This document shows positions 5,700-56,868 of a stretch of 64,000 nucleotides of DNA, one piece after another. Both the position numbers and the translations under genes were made by a program. Below the pieces are notes generated by a model. It was not told the DNA's origin and did not search any database. It saw only the letters and a list, made by a program, of their open reading frames with translations. The stretch is taken from IMG/VR virus record IMGVR_UViG_2595698871_000001, positions 109,443-173,442 of that record; one strand, 5' to 3'. The stretch's first letter is position 1. The number at the start of each line of letters is the position of its first letter. The stretch comes from a virus (taxonomy: Duplodnaviria; Heunggongvirae; Uroviricota; Caudoviricetes).

Positions 5700-5775
5700 C
5701 CAGAGGAGAGTGGTTAGGTGGATGTCGACGATCCTTCTATCCAGGGCATCCGGTTCTGTCAACACACTCGCTCCG
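5700..5775 (-). promoter_or_regulatory. consensus promoter/leader element driving rIIA-rIIB
   Basis: Reverse complement reads gagcgaGTGTGTTGACAGaaccggatgccctggaTAGAAGGatcgtcgac...ggag..ATG; TTGACA, 17 nt, TAGAAG. Confidence 0.55.
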
Positions 5776-12804: not shown

Positions 12805-12870
12805 AGACGTAAAGTGTTGACAGACGACACTCGATCCCGGTATGTGATCCTTGTACGGTAAGGGAAACCG
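12805..12870 (+). promoter_or_regulatory. promoter-like element (aaaGTGTTGACAGacgacac...)
   Basis: TTGACA 12817-12822 with a weaker -10 (gtatgt); drives the plus-strand regulator cassette. Confidence 0.35.
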
Positions 12871-21164: not shown

Positions 21165-21622
21165 TGGCAGACCTTCACGGGGTCGACGGCCGCGACCGGC
21201 GACATGTAGGTGTCGGGGTCCCAGGCGCCGGGGACGTTGCCGCCCTCGATGTACTGGTAGTCCGGCGACGGCGGCCTCATCGAGCCGCCGTTGCTGGCGA
21301 CCTTGCCCGGATTGGGATAGGCCGATAGCCACAGGCGCCCGTCGGTGCCGCGCAGGACAAATTGCCCGCTCTGGCGGCAGACCTTGGCGATCTGCATCCG
21401 CCATGCGTAGTTGAGCTTGCGCTTCTTGGCGGCCTCGTCGCGCAGCCACTGCTCATGGCCCATCCGCGCCCACCGAGCCCTCTTGGCGACGAGGGCCTTG
21501 TGCTCGGGCGACCAGCGCAGGTTCTGCTCCTCGTCGAACGACACCGACACCGTCACCAGCAAGAGGAGGACCAGGACACCAAGCACCGGGAGCCAGAAGA
21601 GCGGATCACGCAGGCGAGACAT
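21161..21622 (-). CDS. membrane-anchored hypothetical protein (N-terminal TM helix)
   Basis: LFWLPVLGVLVLLLLVTVSV hydrophobic segment; ATGA overlap with nadV. Confidence 0.5.
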   Translation of the reverse strand: MSRLRDPLFWLPVLGVLVLLLLVTVSVSFDEEQNLRWSPEHKALVAKRARWARMGHEQWLRDEAAKKRKLNYAWRMQIAKVCRQSGQFVLRGTDGRLWLSAYPNPGKVASNGGSMRPPSPDYQYIEGGNVPGAWDPDTYMSPVAAVDPVKVCQ

Positions 21623-23079
21623 CAGGCGGGCTCGTCGACGAAGGCGTAGTCGCCGGTGTCGTAGCCGGCCGCCACGCGCTCGCGGACTTGATCCAGGGTC
21701 GTCGGCTCCAGCACCTTGCCGGTGTTGAAGACCTCGTCGAGCAGGTCGTGCTCAACCACGTCGCCTTCGTGGACCGTGATGGTCTCGAAGCCGCCATGCT
21801 CGTTGGTCACGAGCGCCAGCTTGCCCTTCTTGGACACCTTGCCCGGATCGGTGATCGGGTCCTTGAAGATGTCGACCCACTCGCCGTTGATCTCCTGGGC
21901 CGACGACTTCATCGCCCACTTGTTGGTGTCGCGGTCGAGGTCGCCCGTCGCCAGACCACCGCCGGCCGCCGTCATGATGCTGTCGGGCGCGATGCCCAGG
22001 TCCCGGCCCAGGTAGAACGGGTCCATGTGGGTGTGCTCGTTCATGCCGTCGCCCTGGAGGACCTTGACGTTCATGTTGATGACGTCCAGGCCCTTGCTGT
22101 TGCGCTGGGTGCCGAACCCGTCCGCCAGGGTCTTGAGGACCGGCGGGATCACCTCGCCCAGGCGCCCGCTGTCGGGGCGGCAGACGATGGTCAGGTTCTT
22201 GTTGGCGATCAGGTCCTTGTACTTCACGAGCTTCTTGGCGAACTCGAAGATGTTCCAGGTGTCGCCGACCAGCGAGACGATCGAGCCCACCGGCGCGCGC
22301 GTCAGGCAGTGCAGGATGTACTCGTCGTCGTTGTCGCGCCCGAACGAGCACGAGATCGAGTGCTCGGTGGCCAGCACCGAATAGGCCGACATCTCGCTGA
22401 AGTAGTTGATGTTCGCCGCGCGCACGCCGGGCACGTTGTCCGAGCCCTGGAAGTGGAAGAGGTGAGCGATGCCGGCCAGGACCGAATGGTCATAGCCCAT
22501 GGTGCCGCGCGAGGAGAAGTCCAGGAAGGCGAACGGCGACATCGGGGTGTCGCTGGTCAGTTCCCAGAAAATCTTGATCGACTGGGCGATCTTGTTGACG
22601 CGGGCGGCGATCGTCGAGGCCGTCCAGACATCGCGCAGGATCATGGTCTCGAAGTACGAGGTCAGCCAGGGCAGGCGCGGGTCGAGGTTCTCGACGCTGA
22701 TCAGCGCGTTCTTGACCGGGATCATCATGCCCTCGGGCACGGCCTTGATCCGCAGCGGCAGGTAGCCGCCGTACTCGTTCAGGATGATCTCCCAGCCGTC
22801 ACGGTTGAACGGCAGGCCATGGGCCGGCACGAACGCGGCCATCTCTTCGATGTCGGCGCGGGTGATCGGCTTGCAGAGCTTCTGGAAGAGCAGGCGCTGG
22901 AACGCGGCCAGCATCACCTTGGGGTAACGCCCGCCCCGGCTCTCGATGTAGCTGTAGACGGTGGTGCAGCCGTCGCGATAGAGCACCCAGTGACCCAGCT
23001 TGTAGCTGTCGGTGTCGGCGATCAGGTTGTAGGTCTCGACGGGGGCGACCCCGTCCCAGTTGGCGATGTCGAAGGCCAT
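21622..23079 (-). CDS. nadV: nicotinamide phosphoribosyltransferase (NadV/NAMPT)
   Basis: N-terminal YNLIADTDSYKLGHW (DSYK signature); about 485 aa, typical for NAMPT; aagggga RBS. Confidence 0.85.
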   Translation of the reverse strand: MAFDIANWDGVAPVETYNLIADTDSYKLGHWVLYRDGCTTVYSYIESRGGRYPKVMLAAFQRLLFQKLCKPITRADIEEMAAFVPAHGLPFNRDGWEIILNEYGGYLPLRIKAVPEGMMIPVKNALISVENLDPRLPWLTSYFETMILRDVWTASTIAARVNKIAQSIKIFWELTSDTPMSPFAFLDFSSRGTMGYDHSVLAGIAHLFHFQGSDNVPGVRAANINYFSEMSAYSVLATEHSISCSFGRDNDDEYILHCLTRAPVGSIVSLVGDTWNIFEFAKKLVKYKDLIANKNLTIVCRPDSGRLGEVIPPVLKTLADGFGTQRNSKGLDVINMNVKVLQGDGMNEHTHMDPFYLGRDLGIAPDSIMTAAGGGLATGDLDRDTNKWAMKSSAQEINGEWVDIFKDPITDPGKVSKKGKLALVTNEHGGFETITVHEGDVVEHDLLDEVFNTGKVLEPTTLDQVRERVAAGYDTGDYAFVDEPA

Positions 23080-23090
23080 GAGGTTCCCCT

Positions 23091-24329
23091 TTAAGCGTTG
23101 AGGCTAAGCATGCGGTCCACGATGAAGGCGTGGTCCTCGAAGGTGTTGGACGGGTCGATCTCGGAGATCGGGTCCCAGTCGGCGGCGGCGGCGTCGTCGT
23201 GCCCCTTGACCACCGGCAGGCTCAGGCCCAGAGCCGGCGGCGGGATGACGAAGTGGTAGGCGGTCGAGATGATGTGGGCGCGCCGCGAGCGGTGCGGATC
23301 GTCGAAGACCTGAGGCTCGCCCACCAGGAAGCGGCGAAGCTCCTCCATGGCCTTGAGCACGTAGCCCGGCGCGGCCGGCGGACGCAGGCCCAGCTTCTCG
23401 GCCTGCTTGCAGGCGGCGAGCCAGTGGACGAAGTTGTAGTAGTCGCGCTCGGAGATGAACAGCGCGGTCTCTTCGATGATCTCGCGCAGGCAGTTGGCCA
23501 GCAGCGAGGAGCCCGCGTTGACGAAGCCGCCGGGCAGGGCCTTCATGCCCAGGCCCTCGGCGCCGCCGCGCTCGATCCGCAGGATGTGGCCGGCGCACTC
23601 GACGACGCCGTCGACGGCCAGGAACGGACCCGGCCCCCAGCGCTCGCGGTAGGCGTCCTCGGCCTTCTTCTGGGCGAGCAGGTAGGCGTAGACCTGCTTG
23701 TCGCGGAACCGCTCCAGGAAGTCGATGGTGCTCGGGTAGAGCAGATCGCTCCAGGCGTAGCCCCGGTCGCTCCAGGAAGTGTCGCGGAAGTTGACCCCGC
23801 CAGCGAAATAGGCTTGGCGCAGGGCCGTGGCGTTGACGCCGTTGTCCTCGACCGGCGTGTAGGGCCACTGCGGGAACCACGTCAGGTATTCGCTGGTGGC
23901 GTCGCGGACGTTGCCGATCAGGGTGACGCGCGGGCGCAGGACCTTGGTGGCGTTCTTGACGTGCTGCTGGACCTGGGCGATCCACTCGTTCTTGCCGAAC
24001 GGGCCGGTGTCGTTGAGCGCGATGACCTCGGTGTTGGAGATGTGCTCCAGGACGCGGGCGCCGGTGACCTCGACATCGACGTACTCGCCGCTGAAGTCGG
24101 CCGCGATCTCCTCGGCGGCCAGATCACTGATCCCGTCCAGGATCATCGCCTTGCGCTCCTCGAACAGGAACGGGTTGCGGGTGTCGCGGGCGAGGTTGGC
24201 CGAGCCGATGAACCAGAGGACCTTGCGGGCCTTCTTGCGCGCGGCCTGATACAGGCGGAAGTGGCCGAGCTTGGTCGGCATTTGCGCCCGCGTGATCAGC
24301 ACCGCGATGTCGTACTCGAAATCCACCAT
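23091..24329 (-). CDS. natV: bifunctional NMN adenylyltransferase / Nudix hydrolase (NatV-like)
   Basis: N-terminal nucleotidyltransferase motif DIAVLITRAQMPTKLGH ((H/T)xGH-like); C-terminal Nudix box GGFVNAGSSLLANCLREIIEETAL (Gx5Ex7REUxEExGU); ATG 24329 overlaps the upstream TGA. Confidence 0.8.
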   Translation of the reverse strand: MVDFEYDIAVLITRAQMPTKLGHFRLYQAARKKARKVLWFIGSANLARDTRNPFLFEERKAMILDGISDLAAEEIAADFSGEYVDVEVTGARVLEHISNTEVIALNDTGPFGKNEWIAQVQQHVKNATKVLRPRVTLIGNVRDATSEYLTWFPQWPYTPVEDNGVNATALRQAYFAGGVNFRDTSWSDRGYAWSDLLYPSTIDFLERFRDKQVYAYLLAQKKAEDAYRERWGPGPFLAVDGVVECAGHILRIERGGAEGLGMKALPGGFVNAGSSLLANCLREIIEETALFISERDYYNFVHWLAACKQAEKLGLRPPAAPGYVLKAMEELRRFLVGEPQVFDDPHRSRRAHIISTAYHFVIPPPALGLSLPVVKGHDDAAAADWDPISEIDPSNTFEDHAFIVDRMLSLNA

Positions 24330-24779: not shown

Positions 24780-24815
24780 GACACTATCGATTTCCCTCCG
24801 GCTTTGTCAACGCTT
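24780..24815 (-). promoter_or_regulatory. promoter-like element (gcgTTGACAaagccggagggaaatcgATAGTG)
   Basis: TTGACA (reverse complement of 24806-24811) and a -10-like ATAGTG 17 nt downstream; lies between the PTH2 stop and the next gene. Confidence 0.4.
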
Positions 24816-25291
24816 TAACGCAGGAGCTTCAGCGACGAGGGGGCGTGGTATTTGAACGCCGCCTCGGTGATCGGCCCGATCCCCACGAAGGTCACGGTCG
24901 GCTTCTCGAAGACGGTGCGCCCGGCGTCGACGACCAGGGTCGCGCCGGCATACTCCCGGAAGCGCTCGTAGAGGGCTTCCAGTTCTTCGTTGGTGCCGGT
25001 GTGGAGCGCGATCTTCGCCGCCGACTGCGAGTAGCGGTACTGGCGCGCGGTCTTGGGGAAGCGCTCCATGGCGTCCCACCACGCATGCAGGTAGGCGTGG
25101 CCAGCCTGGGCGGAGAGCTTGCCGATGTTGAGGGACTTGTCCTCGGGCTTGCGGCTGCGCTTGGCCACGGTCATCGCGTCGAGCGCTTCCTGGCTGACGA
25201 TGGCGTAGAGGCGCAGTTCAGCCTTGGACTTGCCGGCGAAGCACGCCATCACGAGGTCCCAGGCGTGCAACCAGCTTTCGAAGAATTTCAT
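24815..25291 (-). CDS. peptidyl-tRNA hydrolase, PTH2 (archaeal/eukaryotic) type
   Basis: GKLSAQAGHA (cf. GKVAAQCSHA of human PTRH2) and LVVDAGRTVFEKPTVTFVGIGP (cf. [21 protein letters not shown]); C-terminal SLKLL. Confidence 0.7.
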   Translation of the reverse strand: MKFFESWLHAWDLVMACFAGKSKAELRLYAIVSQEALDAMTVAKRSRKPEDKSLNIGKLSAQAGHAYLHAWWDAMERFPKTARQYRYSQSAAKIALHTGTNEELEALYERFREYAGATLVVDAGRTVFEKPTVTFVGIGPITEAAFKYHAPSSLKLLR

Positions 25292-26766: not shown

Positions 26767-26769
26767 GAA

Positions 26770-26840
26770 AAGGGCCTCCGGCGTTGTCGTCGAAGGCCCT
26801 TCTAGCGAGTCGGTGTCAGGCTGTCAACACTTGTCAGCCA
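26770..26840 (-). promoter_or_regulatory. consensus promoter/leader element
   Basis: Reverse complement reads GTGTTGACAGcc..(17)..CTAGAAGGGCcttCGACGACAACGccGGAGGcc..ATG. Confidence 0.55.
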
Positions 26841-27442
26841 GCGTCTTCCACCAGCCGCGCGATCCGCTCGAAGCCCAGTTCCAGGCGGCCCCAGAAGGCA
26901 CCGGGCACGTGCGGCTTGACGACCTCGGTGAAGCGGGCGCGCTCCTTCAGGTACATCTTGGCCATGCCCAGATGCGGTGCGTTCGTCGCCGGGTCCTTGA
27001 TCGAGGCCTCGACGTTGGCGATCCGATCGGCCAGCTTCAGGATGCAGGCCTCGGGGTGCTCGCCCAGCTTGCGGTAGATGTCCTCGTTGCGGGCCTTGCG
27101 GTTGGGGCCGATGCCCGACACCGCCCAGACCAGCGCCGCGACGCGCTCGCCGAACTTGTCCTCAACCATCTGCCGGCGGGCCTCGGGCGTCATGTCGAGG
27201 TGGGTGTCCTCGATCACGTCGTGCAGTTTGGCCGCCGCCGTCCAGGTGAAGCCCGCATAGCCGTAGTCGTCCAGGATGCGCTCGACCTTCTGGAGGTGGT
27301 AGAGGTAGGGCTGGCCGGCGTACTGCTGCTCGCCGTGCGCGGCGATGGCGAACTTCGTCGGGTCCTCCTGCTGGTAGGTGCCGGGGGCGTCCTCCATCAG
27401 GCTGGCCAGTTGATCGGGATCGGACAGGGGCGTGTCGGTCAT
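26834..27442 (-). CDS. small alarmone hydrolase (SpoT/RelA-type HD domain, Mesh1-like (p)ppGpp hydrolase)
   Basis: FAIAAHGEQQYAGQPYLYHLQKV...AAKLHDVIEDT...ILKLADRIANV matches the HD hydrolase signature (H...HD....D, KLADRLHNM) of RelA/SpoT and SAH enzymes. Confidence 0.75.
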   Translation of the reverse strand: MTDTPLSDPDQLASLMEDAPGTYQQEDPTKFAIAAHGEQQYAGQPYLYHLQKVERILDDYGYAGFTWTAAAKLHDVIEDTHLDMTPEARRQMVEDKFGERVAALVWAVSGIGPNRKARNEDIYRKLGEHPEACILKLADRIANVEASIKDPATNAPHLGMAKMYLKERARFTEVVKPHVPGAFWGRLELGFERIARLVEDAG

Positions 27443-27846
27443 GACGTTTTCTCGGGGATCAGGGTGAAGACCTCCACCCCCTCGTCGATGCGCATGTGGT
27501 GCGTCGGCGGGTGGGCGGGGTTGTAGCGGATGTAGCCGGCGAGGCCGCCGTCGATCATCGCGCCGCCGCGCTCCTGGTAGTCGTGGCGGAAGCGCGAGAC
27601 CAGGAACGAGCCGTCGGCGAGCTTGATGGCCGAGAACACCGCCTCGCGGATCGAGGCCGCCGAGGTGATGTAGATGCCGTCCTTGAGCGGGTGGATGAAG
27701 AGGCCAAAGTAGTTGTCGTGGCCCTGCGAGCGATCCGGCGTCTCGGTGTAGAAGACGTAGAACGGCCCCTCCCGATCCGGGAGGTCGTAGTAGCCCACGT
27801 ACTTGGCGTTGTAGTGCTCTTCGGCGGCTTTGATGTTGATGCCCAT
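27439..27846 (-). CDS. hypothetical protein (135 aa)
   Basis: Start at the internal Met (MGINIKAAE); overlaps the neighbouring genes' stops. Confidence 0.5.
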   Translation of the reverse strand: MGINIKAAEEHYNAKYVGYYDLPDREGPFYVFYTETPDRSQGHDNYFGLFIHPLKDGIYITSAASIREAVFSAIKLADGSFLVSRFRHDYQERGGAMIDGGLAGYIRYNPAHPPTHHMRIDEGVEVFTLIPEKTS

Positions 27847-28346
27847 CAGGCGACCCTCAAGAATTCGCCCCAGGCGGGGGCGGCGTATTTCAGGTAGGCC
27901 TCGTGCGCGGCCTCCGGCGTAGTATAGCGCCCCAGGAAGCGATAGACACCATGAATGGTGATCTGGGCCTGGAACGGCTTGCTCTTGCACCGGCACTTGG
28001 TCACGCCCTTGGGCAGGGCGCCGATCGGGCGGCGGTTGACGAGGTTCTGCGACCGCGTCGCCTTCCGGAGGTTCTTGATCCGGTTGTTGCGGCGGTTGCA
28101 GTCCTCGTGGTCGACGTCATGGTCGGGAACGACCCCGTGGTGGAGCGCCCAGGCCAGCTTGTGGGCGGCGATCTGGATGCGGCGGCCCTCGAAAGGAACC
28201 TTGATCACCCGGTAGCCGTCCTGGTTGACCGTGCCCAGGCGCTTGCGGGTCTTGGAGCCCCGCAGGTAGATGGCGCCGGACGAGGCCTCGTAGCGATAGC
28301 GCGCCCTGAGGTACTCGACCGGGATGACGTACTCTGCCCCCGACAT
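27846..28346 (-). CDS. HNH homing endonuclease with AP2-like DNA-binding domain
   Basis: HNH motif VDHEDCNRRNNRIKNLRKATRSQN; downstream AP2-like segment FQAQITIHGVYRFLGRYTTPEAAHEAYLKYA. Confidence 0.7.
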   Translation of the reverse strand: MSGAEYVIPVEYLRARYRYEASSGAIYLRGSKTRKRLGTVNQDGYRVIKVPFEGRRIQIAAHKLAWALHHGVVPDHDVDHEDCNRRNNRIKNLRKATRSQNLVNRRPIGALPKGVTKCRCKSKPFQAQITIHGVYRFLGRYTTPEAAHEAYLKYAAPAWGEFLRVA

Positions 28347-28350
28347 GGGA

Positions 28351-28590
28351 TCAATCCTTCTTGGCGTACCGCTTGAAGAGGAGGTAGAAGCCGTAGGCGA
28401 CCAGGACCCCGAGCCAGCAGAACCACAGGATCGCCGCCTGCCCCAGGGTCATGAAGAAGAACCCGATCTTCCAGTCGTCGTTGAACCGGTTCTCCCGGTT
28501 CTCCCAGACCTTGGGGTAGTCGATGGCGTAGCGGTAGCCGATCCGGGCCAGCGCGATCAGGCCGCCCAGGATGAAATAGATGTCCTGCAT
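28351..28590 (-). CDS. small membrane protein (2 TM)
   Basis: IYFILGGLIALARIGY and IGFFFMTLGQAAILWFCWLGVLVAYGFYLLF. Confidence 0.5.
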   Translation of the reverse strand: MQDIYFILGGLIALARIGYRYAIDYPKVWENRENRFNDDWKIGFFFMTLGQAAILWFCWLGVLVAYGFYLLFKRYAKKD

Positions 28591-28597
28591 GGCGGAC

Positions 28598-28873
28598 CTA
28601 CTTCGTGGAGGCGTTGTCGACGGCGTCGACGGCCTTCTCCGCCAGGGCGCCCAGCTTCTTGCGGACGAAGAAGAACACGCCGGCCCAGAAGCCCAGGAAC
28701 AGCGCCAGCGGCCAGATCAGGCCGATGATGATCCCGGCGATGCCGAAGAAGAAGCAGTAGACGCCGATGCCTTCGTAGTTGGTGATCCCCAGCTTGCGGA
28801 ACACCGCCGGGAAGACGGTCGCGGCGGCGGCCCAGACGCCGGCGCAGATGAAGAGCGCGGTGAGGAAATACAT
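28598..28873 (-). CDS. small membrane protein (2-3 TM)
   Basis: Highly hydrophobic 91-aa ORF. Confidence 0.5.
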   Translation of the reverse strand: MYFLTALFICAGVWAAAATVFPAVFRKLGITNYEGIGVYCFFFGIAGIIIGLIWPLALFLGFWAGVFFFVRKKLGALAEKAVDAVDNASTK

Positions 28874-29175
28874 CAGGTCGGTTCCTTTTCGAGCCCGTGG
28901 TCGGGGTCGTACTTGACGAGGATGCCGTCTTCGTTCCGGTGCTCCATCAGGGGCAGGCCGGAGACGAACTGCGGCACGAAGAGGTCGCGGCGCGGCTGCT
29001 GGAGCCAGATGAGGCCGGTCTCGGCCACCTGCGCGCGCTCGGCCGGCGAAAGCTCCCAGCAGGAGATCACGCCCTCGGGGCCGGTGTAGGTGTGCAGCGG
29101 GATGACCGAGTCCTCGTTGCCCGGCGCCGGGTTCCAGACCTTGTTGGAGCCGGCGAAGTTACGCGGCGTGGCCAT
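28873..29175 (-). CDS. hypothetical protein (100 aa)
   Basis: ORF with good codon usage; ATGA overlap. Confidence 0.5.
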   Translation of the reverse strand: MATPRNFAGSNKVWNPAPGNEDSVIPLHTYTGPEGVISCWELSPAERAQVAETGLIWLQQPRRDLFVPQFVSGLPLMEHRNEDGILVKYDPDHGLEKEPT

Positions 29176-29407
29176 GCTTGGACCCCTTGTTGACGAAGAA
29201 CCAGATCGCCAGCGCGATCAGGAAGCCGGGCACGGCCAGGGGCCATGCGAAGGTGACGCCCAGGAAGACGAAGACGCCCAGGAAGACCGCACCGACCGCG
29301 TCGGAGAGCTTGAGCACCCCGTCCTTGGTCTCGTGCTTGATCGCCCAGAAGAGCGCGCCCAGGCCGGCGATCACGCCGACGATGAGAGAGAAGAGGATGT
29401 ACTTCAA
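29159..29407 (-). CDS. small membrane protein (2-3 TM)
   Basis: Hydrophobic 82-aa ORF; TTG start overlapping the mazG stop. Confidence 0.5.
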   Translation of the reverse strand: MKYILFSLIVGVIAGLGALFWAIKHETKDGVLKLSDAVGAVFLGVFVFLGVTFAWPLAVPGFLIALAIWFFVNKGSKHGHAA

Positions 29408-29787
29408 AGCAAGCCCGCCGCCTGCTTGGCGGCCTCCTTGGCGCGGACCTTGTCATGCGACAGGCTCTTCACGCGGTTGATCTCGTCGGCCTCGCAGCCG
29501 TCGGCGCTGATGCCGAGGTTCTCGCAGAGGGTGTAGAGCGACAGGAGCAACCCGCCGACCTCCTCCTTGACCTCGCCGACCGGGCGCCCGTAGGTCCAGT
29601 GGGCCTGCCGGATCACGTCCTCCAAGGTCAGGCCCTGGGTCTGGACGAGTTCCATGCACTCCTCCAGCGTCCGGAAGGCCTGGATGCGGCGGTTGAAGAC
29701 GCGGCCCGTCAGGACCTCCTCAACCCACTTCCAGCACCATGTCTGGCGCTTGGCCCGGTGCTCGTGGCAGGCGTCCACCTCGGTCAC
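29404..29787 (-). CDS. mazG: MazG-like nucleotide pyrophosphohydrolase (all-alpha NTP-PPase)
   Basis: EEVGGLLLSLYTLCENLGISADGCEADEINRVKS fits the MazG E..E...E/D helix pattern; GTG start overlapping the upstream TGA (GTGA); the upstream part of the ORF-track entry is an off-frame shadow of rtcB. Confidence 0.5.
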   Translation of the reverse strand: MTEVDACHEHRAKRQTWCWKWVEEVLTGRVFNRRIQAFRTLEECMELVQTQGLTLEDVIRQAHWTYGRPVGEVKEEVGGLLLSLYTLCENLGISADGCEADEINRVKSLSHDKVRAKEAAKQAAGLL

Positions 29788-29933
29788 GATTTGGTCCACT
29801 TGAACAGGCTCCAGAACGATTGGCGGGTATCGCGTGACCAGCGCCAGGGGCGGATCACCAGGATCGAGGCGATGACGGCGACGATCGCGTAGATCGTCGC
29901 CGCCCGCCCCAGGACGTCCAGGAAGGCCGTCAT
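29784..29933 (-). CDS. small membrane protein (49 aa), tentative
   Basis: ATG 3 nt after the rtcB stop; MTAFLDVLGRAATIYAIVAVIASILVIRPW...; below the ORF-track length cut-off. Confidence 0.35.
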   Translation of the reverse strand: MTAFLDVLGRAATIYAIVAVIASILVIRPWRWSRDTRQSFWSLFKWTKS

Positions 29934-29936
29934 CGA

Positions 29937-31169
29937 CTAGCCCTTCACGCAGAGGACTTGCTTCAGGGTGTGGACGATGTCCACGAGGTCCTTCTGCGCC
30001 TCCATGACCGCGTCGATGTCCTTGTAGGCCATCGGGATTTCGTCGATCACGCCGATGTCCTTGCGGCACTCGACGCCTTCGGTCGCCTTGATCTGGTCTT
30101 CCAGCGTGAAGGCGGCCTTGGCGGCGGTGCGCGACATGGTCCGCCCCGCGCCGTGCGAGCACGAGCAGAACGAGTCGGCGTTGCCCTTGCCGCGCACGAT
30201 GTAGGACTTGGCCCCCATCGAGCCGGGGATGATGCCGAACTGGTCCTTCTGAGCCGACACCGCGCCCTTGCGGGTCACGAAGACCCACTCGTCGAAGTGG
30301 AACTCCTTCTGGACGTAGTTGTGGTGGCAGTTCACCGCTTCCTTGTCCGTCTTGAAGGGCGGCAGGCCCGAGGCGCGCATGGCGTCCAGGACCCGGATCA
30401 TCATCATCTCGCGGTTGATCCGCGCGAAGTCCTGACCCCAGGCGACGGCTTCCACGTAGTCGTAGAATTCCGGCTCGCCTTCCGACAGCCACGCGAGGTC
30501 CTTGTCGAGCGGCTTCTGACCGTCCCGACGCAGCATCATCTCCTTGGCCTTCTCGATGAAGATACGGCCGATGGTGTTGCCGACGCCGCGCGAGCCCGAG
30601 TGGAGCATCACCCAGACGCGCTGGTCCTCGTCGAGGCAGACCTCGATGAAGTGGTTGCCGCCGCCCAGCGTGCCCAGTTGGACGACGCTGTTGGCGTTCT
30701 TGAGGGTCTTGTACTTGTCGCAGAGCTTCTCGAACCGGGCTTCCAGGCCCGAGTCGACCCACTTGCGCATGATCGAGTTCGGGATGCCGCTACGCCCGTT
30801 CCAGCCGCCCGACGGACCCGGCCCGCCGTGCGGGACGGCGTGCTCGATCAGCGAGCGCAGCTTGGCGAGGCTGTCGGGCAGGTCCGAGGCCTTCAGCGAG
30901 GTGCGCACGGCCATCATGCCGCAGCCGATGTCCACGCCCACGGCCGCCGGGATGATGGCGCCCTTGGTCGGGATCACCGAGCCCACGGTCGAGCCGATGC
31001 CCATGTGGACGTCCGGCATCAGGGCCACATGCGAGTGGATGAACGGCAGGGCGGCGAGGTTGTGCGCCTGCACCTGGGCGGGCTGCTCGAAGGTCACACC
31101 CCGGACCCAGGCCTTGATCACCCCGCCGTTCCAGCCGGTGATCTCTTCGTATTGGGTCTCGGCGGTCAT
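29937..31169 (-). CDS. rtcB: RtcB RNA 3'-phosphate/2',3'-cyclic-phosphate – 5'-OH ligase
   Basis: Hallmark blocks GGGNHFIE, HSGSRGVGN, CHHNY, SCSHGAGR; 410 aa; gaggag RBS. Confidence 0.9.
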   Translation of the reverse strand: MTAETQYEEITGWNGGVIKAWVRGVTFEQPAQVQAHNLAALPFIHSHVALMPDVHMGIGSTVGSVIPTKGAIIPAAVGVDIGCGMMAVRTSLKASDLPDSLAKLRSLIEHAVPHGGPGPSGGWNGRSGIPNSIMRKWVDSGLEARFEKLCDKYKTLKNANSVVQLGTLGGGNHFIEVCLDEDQRVWVMLHSGSRGVGNTIGRIFIEKAKEMMLRRDGQKPLDKDLAWLSEGEPEFYDYVEAVAWGQDFARINREMMMIRVLDAMRASGLPPFKTDKEAVNCHHNYVQKEFHFDEWVFVTRKGAVSAQKDQFGIIPGSMGAKSYIVRGKGNADSFCSCSHGAGRTMSRTAAKAAFTLEDQIKATEGVECRKDIGVIDEIPMAYKDIDAVMEAQKDLVDIVHTLKQVLCVKG

Positions 31170-31179
31170 GTGCTCCTCG

Positions 31180-31245
31180 CTGCCGTTGTCGTGATTTACG
31201 ACTTTTGACCACGCCCTTCGTCGTCTGTCAACACACCTTCGATCG
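31180..31245 (-). promoter_or_regulatory. promoter/leader element upstream of rtcB, embedded in the 3' end of a small upstream ORF
   Basis: Reverse complement reads GTGTTGACAGacgacgaagggcgtggTCAAAAGtcgtaaatcaCGACAACGgcagcGAGGAGcacATG. Confidence 0.5.
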
Positions 31246-31375
31246 CCTCGATCTGAGATTCGGCCAGAAAACGGATCGCCGCGTCGTCGGCCCCGCAGCG
31301 CCCGATGATCTGGTCGAGGACCTCCAGGGTGTCCTCCAGCATGCTGCGGTAGGTGTTCTCGCGCGGGGTGCTCAT
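31196..31375 (-). CDS. small hypothetical protein (59 aa), tentative
   Basis: MSTPRENTYRSMLEDTLEVLDQIIGRCG...; ATGA-coupled to the upstream small ORF; acceptable codon usage. Confidence 0.35.
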   Translation of the reverse strand: MSTPRENTYRSMLEDTLEVLDQIIGRCGADDAAIRFLAESQIEAIEGVLTDDEGRGQKS

Positions 31376-31476
31376 GGGATCGCTTTCAGCACTTGGATGA
31401 GGGCCGCCCAGAGCGCCAGATCGGCGAGGACGGCGAGGAAGAGTTCATAGTTCAAACGGGCGCCCTTGTGGGTCAT
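31372..31476 (-). CDS. small hydrophobic peptide (34 aa), tentative
   Basis: Strong gggagg RBS 5 nt upstream of the ATG; MTHKGARLNYELFLAVLADLALWAALIQVLKAIP. Confidence 0.35.
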   Translation of the reverse strand: MTHKGARLNYELFLAVLADLALWAALIQVLKAIP

Positions 31477-31492
31477 CGCTGCCTCCCTGAAA

Positions 31493-31529
31493 CGAAAAAC
31501 GCCGGCGAGTAGGTCCCGCCGGCGTTTCC
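31493..31529 (-). terminator. intrinsic terminator (CGCCGGCG agtaggtcc CGCCGGCG) with TTTTTC on the minus strand
   Basis: 8-bp GC stem followed on the minus strand by TTTTTCGTTTC; immediately downstream of the SPFH gene stop. Confidence 0.6.
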
Positions 31530-38990: not shown

Positions 38991-40386
38991 CGACCGAGGC
39001 TGCGACCTTGGTGAGGGACTCGCGCTGGGCCTTGATGCGTTTGTCGAAGGCGTCGAGCGTCGACATCATCTCGGCCTCCAGCTTGTCCAGCGCCGCCCAC
39101 TGCTCGACGACCGCCTTGGCGGCCTTGTCCTGGGCCTCGTTGCGTTCTGGGCCGTAGACCCGCTCGCGCAGTTCGGCGATCCAGGCGCGCGGCAGGCCCA
39201 GTTCCTTGGAGACCTTCTCGTCGGTCATGTCGCCGCCATAGCACTGGCGGTTGGTATCGTAGTGGGTGTCCAGGGCTTCGAGGATACGGCGGTTCTCGGC
39301 CGGCGTCGCCGCGCGCGGCGGCTCGGCGGACTGGGGCAGGGTCTTGGCGGCGGCTGGGGGCATGGCGATCTCCGGAATAGGGGTTTCGATATGGGTTTCG
39401 ATGGTGGTCGGATTGTTCTTCTTGGCCAGCCGCGTCTTGGCGGCGGCCTTCTGGCGCTCGGAGCGTTCTTCCTGGGTCATGGCGGCCCAGTAGGCGCGCG
39501 GGCCGCGCCCCTTCTTTTCACGCTGCTCGGCGATCTTGGCTTCCCGCTTGGCCTTGCGCGTGGCGTGGCCCTTCTTGGCGAGTTCCGACCGTTGCTCGGG
39601 CGTCAGGGATTCGTGGTGGGCGCGCAGATGCGCCCCATCGAAGAGCTTGCGCCGATCGACCTTGGCGTCGACGCCTTGTTCCTTGCTCACGATGGCGTAG
39701 GCCTCCTCGAAAATGGGATTGAGGAACTTGTCGGACGCGTAGTGGACGATCTCCTCGGGCAGCACGTCATCCTGGGTGCTCAGTTCCTGGATCACCCGGC
39801 GGATCGACGCCAGGAGAGGAGCCGTGGGCGCTTCAAGTCCACACTCGCGGAAGAACTTGCCGGCGTAATTCGTGAGGACGACCTTGATCCGCTGCTCGCG
39901 CGGGTAGCCGCCCGTCGTCTTGCGGATGGCGCCCCGGACGATCCTGTCGGCCGTGTCGGGATCGATCTCCGCCACGGTGGCCAGCATCTTGCCCACGGCC
40001 TCGTCTTCGAGGACGAAGTCACCCGCCTCGCGCGGGTCGATCATCTCGATCGGCTTGATCGCGTTGGACACGACCTGGATCGCCGTGTCGATGGCGATGT
40101 CGTCGCGGTCGGCGACCGGGGCGGAGTCCTGCTTGGCGCGGCCGTGGCAGGACGGGCAGGTGTCCTTGTTGCGGTTGGCGCCGACGGCCCAGCCCCGCTT
40201 ACGGAATATCTTCGAGGCCAGTTCCGCCGGGATGTGCGGGCTGCGCGTCGTCACCGGGACGGCGTCATCGCGGTCGCACTTGCGGCAGACGGCCACGACG
40301 TGGTTCTGGCGCTTGTTGGGGTCGGTGGCCAGGGGACGCATCTCGACCCGGAACGACTCGCGCGTGGCAAGTTTGGTCGTGCTCAT
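38974..40386 (-). CDS. hypothetical protein with an N-terminal Cys4 treble-clef (CRKC...CPSCHG) and a long K/R/E-rich region; possible nucleic-acid-binding regulator
   Basis: C-x2-C-x34-C-x2-C; central ARKAKREAKIAEQREKKGRGPRAYWAAMTQEERSERQKAAAKTRLAKK; start at M15. Confidence 0.5.
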   Translation of the reverse strand: MSTTKLATRESFRVEMRPLATDPNKRQNHVVAVCRKCDRDDAVPVTTRSPHIPAELASKIFRKRGWAVGANRNKDTCPSCHGRAKQDSAPVADRDDIAIDTAIQVVSNAIKPIEMIDPREAGDFVLEDEAVGKMLATVAEIDPDTADRIVRGAIRKTTGGYPREQRIKVVLTNYAGKFFRECGLEAPTAPLLASIRRVIQELSTQDDVLPEEIVHYASDKFLNPIFEEAYAIVSKEQGVDAKVDRRKLFDGAHLRAHHESLTPEQRSELAKKGHATRKAKREAKIAEQREKKGRGPRAYWAAMTQEERSERQKAAAKTRLAKKNNPTTIETHIETPIPEIAMPPAAAKTLPQSAEPPRAATPAENRRILEALDTHYDTNRQCYGGDMTDEKVSKELGLPRAWIAELRERVYGPERNEAQDKAAKAVVEQWAALDKLEAEMMSTLDAFDKRIKAQRESLTKVAASVGVKLA

Positions 40387-56731: not shown

Positions 56732-56868
56732 GACGCTCCTCGATTTTCGCCGGCACCCTAGAGGAGCGCCGATGTGTTGACAAGCGCCAAATGGCTCTGG
56801 CTGGCGAGTGTTGACAAGGCGGCGGTGGTCCCTTAGAAGGGCGGCGACGACAACGAAAGGAGGCGCTG
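56732..56868. promoter_or_regulatory. divergent promoter hub: minus-facing element plus two tandem plus-facing GTGTTGACAAG boxes, then CTTAGAAGG, CGACGACAACG and AAGGAGG
   Basis: Plus strand: TTGACA at 56776-56781 and 56811-56816, TAGAAG at 56834-56839, CGACGACAACG at 56845-56855, ATG at 56869; minus side: cctctaggg-like -10 at 56756-56764 and a gaggag RBS. Confidence 0.5.

What the first reader, a model, noticed from the sequence alone, without database searches (positions are those of the whole stretch)
26834..31245. Co-transcribed RtcB – MazG – HNH – small-alarmone-hydrolase operon: candidate tRNA/alarmone counter-defence module
A single consensus promoter (31.2 kb) drives, with no internal promoter or terminator and with coupled start/stop overlaps, the following genes in order: rtcB (RNA 2',3'-cyclic-phosphate/5'-OH ligase); a 49-aa membrane peptide; a MazG-like NTP pyrophosphohydrolase; four small membrane or unknown proteins; an HNH-AP2 endonuclease; a 135-aa unknown; and a SpoT/Mesh1-type HD small alarmone hydrolase (SAH). 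RtcB can re-seal tRNAs cut by anticodon nucleases or tRNA-targeting defence effectors (PrrC/RloC-type, PARIS AriB, retron/VapC-like). SAH enzymes hydrolyse (p)ppGpp/(p)ppApp and can remove the 3'-pyrophosphate that toxSAS effectors (CapRel/FaRel2-type) place on the tRNA CCA end. MazG is thought to deplete alarmones. A PTH2-type peptidyl-tRNA hydrolase sits 1.5 kb downstream in the next operon, and the NadV/NatV pair follows that. This concentration of tRNA-end repair, alarmone hydrolysis and peptidyl-tRNA recycling functions in one transcription unit has, to my knowledge, not been described as a unit. The interleaved small membrane proteins and unknowns (27439-27846, 28873-29175) are candidates for new anti-defence factors.
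Basis: partly seen in the sequence, partly recalled or inferred. Interest (0 to 1): 0.85.

Follow-up and report, generated by a model that had tools for sequence, protein, structure and literature searches.

The report
Phage RNA-repair and alarmone-hydrolase operon
This is a real ten-gene operon of the published Caulobacter phage CcrRogue that carries an RNA-repair ligase and an alarmone hydrolase; a role in countering host defences is plausible, but it is untested and its parts have already been predicted in the literature.

Summary
The window is Caulobacter phage CcrRogue (NC_019408), 100% identical. Ten tightly packed minus-strand genes (gp257-gp266, 31169-26834) lie between one copy of a repeated phage promoter motif and a strong terminator hairpin, and no copy of the motif falls inside. 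GTGTTGACA occurs 15 times in the window against 0.19 expected.

- **Gene identities confirmed:** RtcB, an HNH_3 endonuclease, and a single-domain RelA/SpoT-type HD hydrolase with intact catalytic motifs. PTH2 and NadM-Nudix plus NadV (NARP2) lie downstream.
- **MazG:** supported only as remote superfamily homology. It falls below Pfam's cut-off and lacks the final Asp of the motif.
- **AP2:** not detected.

Three results are new here. RtcB...SAH...NadM-NadV is a conserved gene-order block across Dolichocephalovirinae and metagenomic relatives, but not in unrelated phages that carry the hydrolase. The unknown gp261 is fused to the hydrolase in CcrPW and Kikimora. The unknown gp265 (DUF7695-like) gives a confident model with no match among solved structures.

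The counter-defence reading is plausible but untested, and each element has already been proposed (Iyer 2021, Jimmy 2020, Osterman 2024). I rate it a new member of a known kind, of moderate interest.

The parts
31490..31526 (-). Intrinsic terminator that ends the upstream (band-7 lipoprotein) unit: a 12-bp GC-rich stem followed by UUUUUCGUUU.
   Evidence: -22.3 kcal/mol, z -3.8. Conserved in CcrKarma, where the record annotates a rho-independent terminator at this position.
31202..31234 (-). Promoter of the unit: GTGTTGACAG, then 14-15 nt, then GTCAAAAG (a weak -10 element). It lies inside the last codons of gp256. A CACGACAAC leader and a GAGGAG ribosome-binding site follow.
   Evidence: motif family, 15 copies against 0.19 expected; the element is conserved between Rogue and Karma.
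29937..31169 (-). gp257, RtcB RNA ligase (joins 3'-P or 2',3'-cyclic-P ends to 5'-OH ends).
   Evidence: Pfam RtcB E 4.8e-123 over the full length. phrog_1075. Matches solved RtcB structures 2epg, 7p3b and 1uc2 with the metal-binding and GMP-His motifs aligned.
29784..29933 (-). gp258, a 49-aa protein with one hydrophobic segment.
   Evidence: hydropathy. phrog_12749, found only in phiCbK-like phages.
29404..29787 (-). gp259, a 127-aa divergent member of the MazG-like all-alpha NTP pyrophosphohydrolase superfamily. Its substrate is unknown.
   Evidence: No Pfam or NCBIfam hit. The family has 6130 representatives. The family profile matches YpjD 2gta at E 4e-8, 5ie9 at 1.3e-4 and 4qgp at 3e-4. 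R39, E42, E43, E46 and E76 are invariant, and G79 stands where the motif Asp should be. Conserved after rtcB in CcrPW, Kikimora, Bajun and L014.
29159..29407 (-). gp260, an 82-aa membrane protein.
   Evidence: phrog_12744.
28873..29175 (-). gp261, a 100-aa soluble protein of unknown function. Its homologue is fused to the N-terminus of the HD/SAH protein in Colossusvirus and in the Brevundimonas jumbo phage Kikimora.
   Evidence: gp261 and SAH matches lie in the same frame inside single annotated CDSs of CcrPW and Kikimora. Searches give distribution and alignment. No Pfam hit.
28598..28873 (-). gp262, a 91-aa membrane protein.
   Evidence: phrog_11940.
28351..28590 (-). gp263, a 79-aa membrane protein.
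   Evidence: phrog_12079.
27846..28346 (-). gp264, an HNH_3 homing-type endonuclease. It is present in some related blocks and absent from others.
   Evidence: Pfam HNH_3 E 3.6e-14. I-HmuI 1u3e E 1.5e-4. PADLOC HEase 4e-11. AP2 is not detected at E<=5. Present in Bajun, L010 and L014; absent from CcrPW, Kikimora and L016.
27439..27846 (-). gp265, a 135-aa DUF7695-like protein of unknown function, translationally coupled to the SAH gene.
26834..27442 (-). gp266, a single-domain RelA/SpoT-homologue hydrolase (small alarmone hydrolase).
   Evidence: HD_4 at 35.6 bits against a cut-off of 27.2. TIGR00691 matches the N-terminal part only. Matches Rel hydrolase domains and human MESH1. H49, H74-D75, E78-D79, D139 and N143 are present. 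32% identical to Salmonella phage SSU5 PaSpo.
26768..26802 (-). Hairpin followed by UUUU that ends the unit. It overlaps the -10 element and start region of the next promoter, and its 3' arm holds the ribosome-binding site of gp267.
   Evidence: -22.5 kcal/mol, z -5.6. Identical in Karma, where the record annotates a terminator.
26799..26830 (-). Next promoter of the same family (GTGTTGACAG, 14 nt, GCTAGAAG). It drives gp267 to gp270 (PTH2).
24815..25249 (-). gp270, a PTH2-type peptidyl-tRNA hydrolase. Context: it belongs to the next unit.
   Evidence: Pfam PTH2 E 2.3e-14. NCBIfam Pth2 hits.
21622..24326 (-). gp273 NadV (NAMPT) and gp272 NadM-Nudix (NMNAT), together NARP2. Context: they form the right-hand end of the conserved gene-order block.
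   Evidence: Gene order compared. NARP2 is defined in Osterman 2024.

Best explanation
Shown from sequence. gp257-gp266 of phage CcrRogue form one promoter-to-terminator unit. It encodes an RtcB RNA ligase, a divergent MazG-like NTP pyrophosphohydrolase, a homing-type HNH endonuclease, and a single-domain RelA/SpoT-type 3'-pyrophosphohydrolase (SAH) with intact catalytic motifs. It also encodes four small membrane proteins and two conserved soluble unknowns, gp261 and gp265. The unit is the left half of a lineage-conserved island, RtcB ... SAH ... (PTH2) ... NadM-Nudix - NadV, which persists in Dolichocephalovirinae and metagenomic relatives while the genes between and around it change.

Inferred. 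The island keeps the infected cell's translation apparatus and nucleotide and NAD pools working when the host tries to shut them down.
- RtcB re-joins RNAs cut by metal-independent ribonucleases (anticodon nucleases, HEPN or colicin-like toxins).
- The SAH removes 3'-pyrophosphates from (p)ppGpp, (p)ppApp or tRNA CCA ends.
- PTH2 recycles peptidyl-tRNA.
- NARP2 rebuilds NAD+.

This would blunt both the stringent response and abortive-infection effectors.

Further inferences. gp261 probably works with the SAH, because the two are fused in related phages. gp265 probably acts in the same nucleotide-centred context. The HNH gene is probably a selfish passenger. The terminal hairpin probably insulates the unit: read-through transcripts fold it, which would terminate them and hide the gp267 ribosome-binding site, whereas transcripts that start at the overlapping promoter lack its 5' arm.
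For: - Identity and anatomy.
- Promoter family and absence of an internal copy. Conservation of the rtcB promoter.
- Bracketing terminators.
- RtcB.
- SAH.
- MazG-like superfamily link.
- PTH2 and NARP2 genes.
- Conserved block with variable filling and flanks.
- gp261-SAH fusion.
- Published activities of relatives. Phage SAHs PaSpo and PbcSpo neutralise all tested toxSASs. SAHs reverse tRNA CCA pyrophosphorylation. NARP2 overcomes NAD-depleting defences. Jumbo-phage RtcB and HD-alarmone PDEase are predicted as counter-measures.
Against: - There are no expression, genetic or biochemical data for any of these genes in any phiCbK-like phage.
- The linkage is confined to one phage lineage. SAH homologues in Nodularia, Agrobacterium and Bertelyvirus phages are not near RtcB, so the gene order may reflect shared ancestry rather than selection.
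- RtcB (667 phage records) and SAH (118 records) are otherwise distributed largely independently.
- gp259 lacks a motif Asp and falls below the Pfam cut-off.
- The SAH lacks the Arg that precedes the first metal-binding His in Rel enzymes.
- I did not check whether Caulobacter hosts carry toxSAS systems or anticodon nucleases.
- No PADLOC or Rfam match adds support.
Confidence: 0.55

Rival explanations
1. The unit manipulates host physiology rather than countering defence. The SAH lowers the host's SpoT-made (p)ppGpp so that an oligotrophic, often starved Caulobacter swarmer cell keeps making rRNA and tRNA and keeps replicating DNA. RtcB, PTH2 and NadV/NadM are general maintenance enzymes for a phage with a large genome and 23 tRNA genes.
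For: The same enzyme assignments apply. Rogue carries 23 tRNA genes. In Osterman 2024, NARP2 raised NAD+ even without a defence system. From general knowledge, (p)ppGpp delays the swarmer-to-stalked transition and DNA replication in Caulobacter.
Against: Sequence cannot separate this reading from counter-defence, and the two are not exclusive. Relatives of the SAH and of NARP2 have demonstrated anti-toxSAS and anti-Thoeris effects.
Confidence: 0.3
2. There is no functional module. The genes are independent accessory genes that sit together because this region is inherited vertically in Dolichocephalovirinae. Co-transcription reflects only the dense operon packing typical of the genome, which has a promoter every 2-5 kb.
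For: The linkage is limited to one lineage. Promoter copies recur every 1.5-5 kb across the window, so any ten neighbouring genes would share one. The genes in between vary, and the HNH gene is present in some blocks and absent from others.
Against: The flanks of the block differ between phages: Ter genes, a band-7 gene or a BCS1-AAA gene upstream. Intervening genes turn over, yet RtcB, the gp259-, gp261- and gp265-like genes, the SAH and NadM/NadV stay together down to 30-40% protein identity. The gp261-SAH fusion shows at least one true functional link inside the unit.
Confidence: 0.25
3. The unit cleans up nucleotide pools or supports DNA metabolism. The MazG-like protein, the HD hydrolase and the relatives' PRA-PH or metallophosphoesterase neighbours would clear non-canonical or host dNTPs for phage replication, not signalling nucleotides.
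For: Nucleotide phosphohydrolases of different folds replace one another next to the HD gene in related phages: PRA-PH in L010 and L016, Metallophos in CcrPW. Iyer 2021 suggests that phage MazG-like enzymes may degrade unmodified NTPs.
Against: The HD protein matches the RelA/SpoT hydrolase family specifically (HD_4, TIGR00691, Rel and MESH1 structures), not dNTPase-type HD proteins. RtcB, PTH2 and NARP2 do not fit a DNA-precursor role.
Confidence: 0.1

Closest known systems
Stand-alone phage small alarmone hydrolases (PaSpo of Salmonella phage SSU5, PbcSpo of PVP-SE1; Jimmy et al. 2020, Kurata et al. 2021)
   Same: gp266 is a single-domain RelA/SpoT-type HD hydrolase encoded by a lytic phage. 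It is 32% identical to SSU5 PaSpo and keeps the same catalytic motifs. Those enzymes neutralise all tested toxSASs, and SAHs reverse tRNA CCA pyrophosphorylation.
   Different: gp266 has not been tested and was not placed in a subfamily here. It lacks the Arg that precedes the first metal-binding His in Rel enzymes. In sister phages the enzyme carries an extra N-terminal gp261-like domain, which was not found in the literature searched here.
Jumbo-phage RNA-repair and counter-nucleotide gene sets (Iyer, Anantharaman, Krishnan, Burroughs, Aravind 2021)
   Same: That survey already predicts phage RtcB, HD-alarmone PDEase, MazG-like triphosphatases and NAD-centred enzymes as counter-measures to host conflict systems. 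At 223.7 kb, CcrRogue is in the size range that survey covers.
   Different: That work treats these as separate components spread over genomes. Here they lie in one transcription unit and one conserved island.
NARP2 (Nampt + Nmnat; Osterman et al. 2024)
   Same: NadV and NadM-Nudix lie next to each other at the right-hand end of the conserved block. The pathway is shown to overcome NAD-depleting defences.
   Different: The pair lies outside the finding's coordinates, in a later transcription unit. The passages of that paper retrieved here do not mention RtcB.
T4 Pnk + Rnl1 tRNA heal-and-seal counter-defence against the anticodon nuclease PrrC (general knowledge)
   Same: A phage-encoded RNA end-repair system that restores cleaved tRNA. 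Kurata 2021 explicitly likens the 3'-phosphatase-like activity of SAHs to T4 Pnk.
   Different: RtcB seals 2',3'-cP/5'-OH ends directly and needs no healing step. No cognate host nuclease is known for Caulobacter. No experiment links RtcB and the SAH.
Bacterial RtcB2-PrfH ribosome and RNA repair pairs
   Same: An RtcB ligase sits near a peptidyl-tRNA-hydrolysing function (here PTH2, 1.6 kb downstream).
   Different: The phage RtcB scores far below the cut-off for the PrfH-linked RtcB model (TIGR03073, 137 against 272 bits). PTH2 is unrelated to PrfH and lies in another transcription unit.

Membership tests
RtcB RNA ligase (PF01139) | Full-length match to the family model above the curated threshold | tested here: met
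   412 bits against a cut-off of 27, residues 34-410 on model positions 1-426. phrog_1075 E 1.5e-152.
RtcB RNA ligase (PF01139) | Conserved metal-binding residues and the GMP-accepting His (D/H, DxGCG, GNHF, HSGSRG, SHGAGR motifs) | tested here: met
   These motifs align with T. thermophilus RtcB 2epg; human and P. horikoshii RtcB also match.
RtcB RNA ligase (PF01139) | GTP- and Mn-dependent joining of 3'-P or 2',3'-cP ends to 5'-OH ends | not testable with these tools
   Needs a biochemical assay.
RelA/SpoT-homologue small alarmone hydrolase (SAH) | HD_4-type hydrolase domain above the Pfam gathering score | tested here: met
   35.6 bits against 27.2. Rel and RelA hydrolase domains and MESH1 are the best PDB matches.
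RelA/SpoT-homologue small alarmone hydrolase (SAH) | Catalytic motifs: metal-binding His, HD, ED, Asp, Asn | tested here: met
   H49, H74-D75, E78-D79, D139 and N143 align with the Rel motifs PYxxH, LHDxxED and ADRxxN.
RelA/SpoT-homologue small alarmone hydrolase (SAH) | Single-domain protein with no synthetase or regulatory domains | tested here: met
   The protein is 202 aa. TIGR00691 matches only model positions 4-120 of 687.
RelA/SpoT-homologue small alarmone hydrolase (SAH) | Conserved substrate-contacting Arg that precedes the first metal-binding His in Rel enzymes | tested here: not met
   The aligned position is Q40/Y41, not Arg. SAH subfamilies vary here, so this bears on substrate choice rather than on membership.
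RelA/SpoT-homologue small alarmone hydrolase (SAH) | Hydrolysis of (p)ppGpp, (p)ppApp or tRNA 3'-pyrophosphate | not testable with these tools
   Shown only for relatives.
MazG-like all-alpha NTP pyrophosphohydrolase | Match to a curated MazG, MazG-like or PRA-PH model above threshold | tested here: not met
   PF12643 scores 13.7 bits against a cut-off of 27 (E 0.075). Only 8 of 57 family members reach E<=1. No NCBIfam hit.
MazG-like all-alpha NTP pyrophosphohydrolase | Homology to solved members, detectable by profile | tested here: met
   The family profile matches YpjD 2gta at E 4e-8 over the full length, 5ie9 at 1.3e-4 and 4qgp at 3e-4.
MazG-like all-alpha NTP pyrophosphohydrolase | Acidic metal-binding motif ExxE ... 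ExxD | tested here: inconclusive
   E42, E43, E46 and E76 are invariant, but the final Asp is Gly in gp259 and in most of the family. The AF2 model is too poor to judge the site (pLDDT 56.8).
HNH homing endonuclease with AP2 DNA-binding domain | HNH_3 nuclease domain | tested here: met
   52.6 bits against a cut-off of 24.8. I-HmuI 1u3e E 1.5e-4.
HNH homing endonuclease with AP2 DNA-binding domain | AP2 domain | tested here: not met
   No AP2 hit even at E<=5. The C-terminal 50 residues resemble AP2 by eye only, and the depositors wrote 'DNA-binding domain protein'.
PTH2 peptidyl-tRNA hydrolase | Match above the Pfam threshold | tested here: met
   54 bits against a cut-off of 23. It falls below NCBIfam's equivalog cut-offs.
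NARP2 (Nampt + Nmnat) | Both enzymes encoded in the same phage, next to each other | tested here: met
   NAMPT_N plus NAPRTase on one protein, and CTP_transf_like plus NUDIX on its neighbour.
Single transcription unit (operon) | One promoter, no internal promoter or terminator, and a terminator at the end | tested here: met
   Tested by sequence motifs only. No transcript data exist.
Phage counter-defence (anti-defence) module | Loss of the genes sensitises the phage to a defined host defence, or expression of the genes neutralises that defence | not testable with these tools
   No experiments were found for phiCbK-like phages.

The most novel reading that the evidence does not exclude
The RtcB-SAH island is a coordinated tRNA-end repair and signal-erasing pathway with new components. 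gp261 would be an accessory or targeting domain of phage alarmone hydrolases, since the two are fused in Colossusvirus-type phages. gp265 (DUF7695-like, no match among solved structures, invariant SRxxHDY...DGG...YxR motif) would be a new enzyme or sponge that acts on nucleotide signals or damaged tRNA ends. The small membrane proteins would add further anti-defence functions.
Probability: 0.15. Interest if true: 0.7.

Novelty: new member of a known kind. Interest (0 to 1): 0.35.

Why it matters
If the inference holds, phiCbK-like phages carry a compact, conserved set of tools that undo three common ways by which bacteria shut down an infected cell: cutting or blocking tRNA, raising alarmones, and draining NAD+. 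Caulobacter is a tractable model host in which to test how these counter-measures work together.

The most useful practical leads are two small conserved unknowns. gp261 now has a concrete partner, the alarmone hydrolase, because the two are fused in related phages. gp265 has a confident structure model with no match among solved structures.

Otherwise the enzymes are ordinary members of families whose roles in phages have already been proposed.

Tried and rejected
- **TAL-effector hits.** These topped the gp259 family profile search. They are repeat artefacts: many 17-22-residue stretches of 2-5 bits each, with no full-length match.
- **L010 PRA-PH gene.** It is not an orthologue of gp259 (hhalign probability 1.7%).
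- **afdb50 fold library.** Unavailable.
- **The search for related loci with the SAH.** It returned only two near-identical phages, so I used tblastn on the phage collection instead.
- **gp261 homologue search.** The word-indexed search found only two proteins; tblastn found 42 phage records.
- **Paracoccus phage R3 'HD-domain protein'.** It is a stand-alone gp261 homologue, not a second fusion.
- **PADLOC.** It matched only the HNH gene, as a homing endonuclease.
- **Rfam.** Nothing found in 24-33 kb.
- **The E. coli-type promoter scan.** It missed the phage promoter family altogether, so I searched with a Caulobacter-type pattern instead.
- **Literature.** No transcriptome of a phiCbK-like infection was found, and no paper links RtcB with anti-defence in these phages.
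- **Not attempted.** I did not survey Caulobacter or Brevundimonas genomes for toxSAS, PrrC or RloC, because I had no reliable query sequence.

Full report
**Source and anatomy.** The 5-kb region is 100% identical to Caulobacter phage CcrRogue (JX100814 / NC_019408; Dolichocephalovirinae, Poindextervirus). It is 84-99% identical to all other phiCbK-like phages. Window position equals record position minus 109442.

| Gene | Product | Window coordinates |
|---|---|---|
| gp257 | RtcB | 29937-31169 |
| gp258 | 49 aa | 29784-29933 |
| gp259 | 127 aa | 29404-29787 |
| gp260 | 82 aa | 29159-29407 |
| gp261 | 100 aa | 28873-29175 |
| gp262 | 91 aa | 28598-28873 |
| gp263 | 79 aa | 28351-28590 |
| gp264 | HNH endonuclease | 27846-28346 |
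| gp265 | 135 aa | 27439-27846 |
| gp266 | HD hydrolase | 26834-27442 |

Every junction is either an overlap of 1, 4 or 17 nt or a gap of 3-7 nt.

**Transcription signals.** An E. coli-type promoter scan finds nothing in this region. A Caulobacter-type pattern (TTGAC, a spacer, then sCTAnA) uncovers a family of elements of the form GTGTTGACAG - N14 - sCTAGAAG - CGACGACAAC - GGAG - start codon.

- The 9-mer GTGTTGACA occurs 15 times in the window against 0.19 expected, and none of 100 shuffles reaches 15. Every copy points in the local direction of transcription.
- One copy lies at 31234-31226, 57 nt upstream of the rtcB ATG and inside the last codons of gp256.
- The next copy lies at 26830-26822, directly after the stop codon of gp266. 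None lies between the two.
- The rtcB copy has a weaker -10 element (GTCAAAAG). Even so, the stretch GTGTTGACA...TGGTCAAAAGTCGTAAATCACGACA is conserved in CcrKarma, while the surrounding gp256 coding sequence diverges. That argues for function.

Two strong hairpins bracket the unit:

- 31526-31490: -22.3 kcal/mol, z -3.8, followed by U5CGU3.
- 26802-26768: -22.5 kcal/mol, z -5.6, followed by U4.

Both positions are annotated as rho-independent terminators in the CcrKarma record. Internal terminator-like matches are weak and no more frequent than in shuffled sequence.

The downstream hairpin overlaps the -10 and start region of the next promoter, and its 3' arm carries the ribosome-binding site of gp267. 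I infer that it stops or silences read-through from the rtcB unit. Transcripts that start at the overlapping promoter would lack its 5' arm and escape.

The observation of a single unit is therefore confirmed at the level of sequence signals. No transcript data were found.

**The enzymes.**

*RtcB* is unambiguous. The Pfam match is E 4.8e-123 over the full length, and the metal-binding and GMP-His motifs align with solved RtcB structures. It scores far below the cut-off of the PrfH-linked RtcB model.

*gp266* is a single-domain RelA/SpoT-type hydrolase.
- HD_4 scores above the gathering threshold.
- TIGR00691 matches only its N-terminal hydrolase part.
- The best PDB matches are Rel/RelA hydrolase domains and human MESH1, with H49, H74-D75, E78-D79, D139 and N143 aligned.
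- The Arg that precedes the first metal-binding His in Rel enzymes is not conserved.
- It is 32% identical to PaSpo of Salmonella phage SSU5.

*gp264* carries HNH_3. It resembles the homing endonuclease I-HmuI and PADLOC's homing-endonuclease model. An AP2 domain is not detectable.

- A profile search of 1.84 billion representatives shows that it belongs to a large family, with 6130 representatives at E <= 1e-3.
- A 57-member profile of that family matches three solved proteins: the MazG-like pyrophosphohydrolase YpjD (2gta, E 4e-8, full length), 5ie9 and 4qgp.
- E42, E43, E46 and E76 are invariant. The final Asp of the ExxD motif is Gly in gp259 and in most of the family.
- The claim therefore holds only at superfamily level. 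The substrate is unknown, and an alarmone-depleting role is speculation.

*Downstream genes.* The PTH2 (24815-25249), NadM-Nudix and NadV assignments are confirmed.

*Small proteins.* gp258, gp260, gp262 and gp263 each have one to three hydrophobic segments.

gp261 has no family assignment. However, in CcrPW and Kikimora its homologue and the SAH homologue lie in the same frame within a single annotated CDS of 307 and 278 aa. In CcrColossus the gp261 match also falls under the HD-domain annotation. This domain fusion is direct evidence that gp261 works with the hydrolase. A stand-alone homologue in Paracoccus phage R3 lies in a replication module.

**Conservation of the arrangement.** I ran tblastn with the window's proteins against related loci and compared annotated regions and metagenomic contigs. 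A recurring block appears: RtcB - (gp259-like) - (gp261-like) - (HNH) - (gp265-like) - (a PRA-PH or metallophosphoesterase gene in some) - HD/SAH - a few small genes - NadM-Nudix - NadV.

- It is present in Poindextervirus and Shapirovirus, in Brevundimonas phage Bajun, in Colossusvirus (CcrPW) and in the Brevundimonas jumbo phage Kikimora.
- It is also present in three metagenomic phage contigs, at protein identities down to 30-40%.
- The flanks differ between phages (Ter genes, a band-7 gene, or a BCS1-AAA gene), and the small genes in between turn over.
- SAH homologues in Bertelyvirus CcrSC, a Nodularia phage and Agrobacterium phage OLIVR5 are not near RtcB.
- RtcB occurs in 667 phage records and the SAH in 118, with apparently little overlap outside Caulobacter and Brevundimonas phages, judged from the organism counts only.

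The linkage is therefore real but confined to one lineage. It may reflect selection, shared ancestry, or both.

**Interpretation.** Each proposed role has precedent.

- Jimmy et al. 2020 showed that the stand-alone phage SAHs PaSpo and PbcSpo neutralise every toxSAS tested. They suggested that phages encode hydrolases to bypass alarmone-based defence.
- Kurata et al. 2021 showed that SAHs reverse pyrophosphorylation of the tRNA CCA end.
- Iyer et al. 2021 predicted jumbo-phage RtcB, HD-alarmone PDEase and MazG-like enzymes as counter-measures. They noted that RtcB acts on the ends left by metal-independent RNases.
- Osterman et al. 2024 established NARP2.

The genome paper for these phages does not discuss any of these genes, and I found no description of them as one unit.

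My best explanation, at confidence about 0.55, is a conserved island that keeps translation and the nucleotide and NAD pools running against host shut-down. Such an island would serve against both the stringent response and abortive-infection effectors. gp261 would be a partner of the SAH, and the HNH gene a selfish passenger.

The rivals are:
- pure manipulation of host physiology, by suppressing the stringent response in an oligotrophic host;
- mere inherited gene order with no functional coupling;
- clean-up of nucleotide pools.

Sequence analysis cannot separate the first rival from counter-defence.

**Verdict.** I rate it a new member of a known kind, with interest about 0.35. The most promising leads for follow-up are the gp261-SAH fusion and the gp265 model with no match among solved structures.

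Noticed in passing
window, 15 sites: minus strand at 5765, 26830, 31234, 33762, 35262, 38971, 40775, 46861, 49012, 53334; plus strand at 12814, 56774, 56808, 58765, 61855: A phage-wide promoter family: GTGTTGACAG - N14 - sCTAGAAG, followed by a conserved leader (CGACGACAAC) and a GGAG ribosome-binding site. It has 15 exact core copies against 0.19 expected. The leader often pairs with the ribosome-binding site. The text searches of the genome paper (Gill 2012) found no mention of it.
   Followed up: partly
L004:5767-6690 (CcrPW) and L005:6758-7594 (Kikimora), compared with window 28873-29175: The 100-aa unknown gp261 is fused in frame to the N-terminus of the HD/SAH protein in Colossusvirus and in the Brevundimonas jumbo phage Kikimora. 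This domain fusion links gp261 functionally to the alarmone hydrolase.
   Followed up: yes
[not shown]
   Followed up: partly
window 26768-26830 (-): The hairpin that ends the rtcB unit overlaps the -10 and start region of the next promoter, and its 3' arm holds the ribosome-binding site of gp267. Read-through transcripts could fold it, but transcripts that start at this promoter could not.
   Followed up: partly
window 31375-31476 (-) and 31196-31375 (-): An unannotated 34-aa hydrophobic ORF with a GGGAGG ribosome-binding site lies between the upstream terminator and gp256, overlapping gp256 in an ATGA. It is absent from CcrKarma. gp256 itself could start at 31375 (59 aa) rather than at the annotated 31327 (43 aa).
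   Followed up: no
window 39888-39961 (+): ARAGORN calls a tRNA-Ala (tgc) here. The site lies antisense inside the annotated CDS gp240, and Gill 2012 reports no tRNA-Ala in Rogue, so it is most likely a false positive.
   Followed up: yes
L006:6968-7768 and L006:13512-14444 (CcrSC): In Bertelyvirus CcrSC the SAH homologue is not near any RtcB gene. It lies 5.7 kb upstream of a tRNA nucleotidyltransferase (CCA-adding enzyme) gene, another enzyme that acts on tRNA 3' ends.
   Followed up: no
L015:7507-10624: In one metagenomic phage contig the gp265 homologue follows a NYN-domain (RNase-like) gene. It lies 1.3 kb upstream of a tRNA-synt_1c (GluRS-like) gene, and an HD_4 gene lies 3 kb downstream.
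   Followed up: no
L004:5216-5767 (CcrPW gp366): The gene annotated 'MutT/nudix family' directly upstream of the fused HD gene matches Pfam Metallophos (calcineurin-like phosphoesterase, E 5e-5), not NUDIX.
   Followed up: no
window 56774-56816 (+): Two copies of the promoter core lie in tandem, 34 nt apart, close to where the GC-skew profile changes sign.
   Followed up: no
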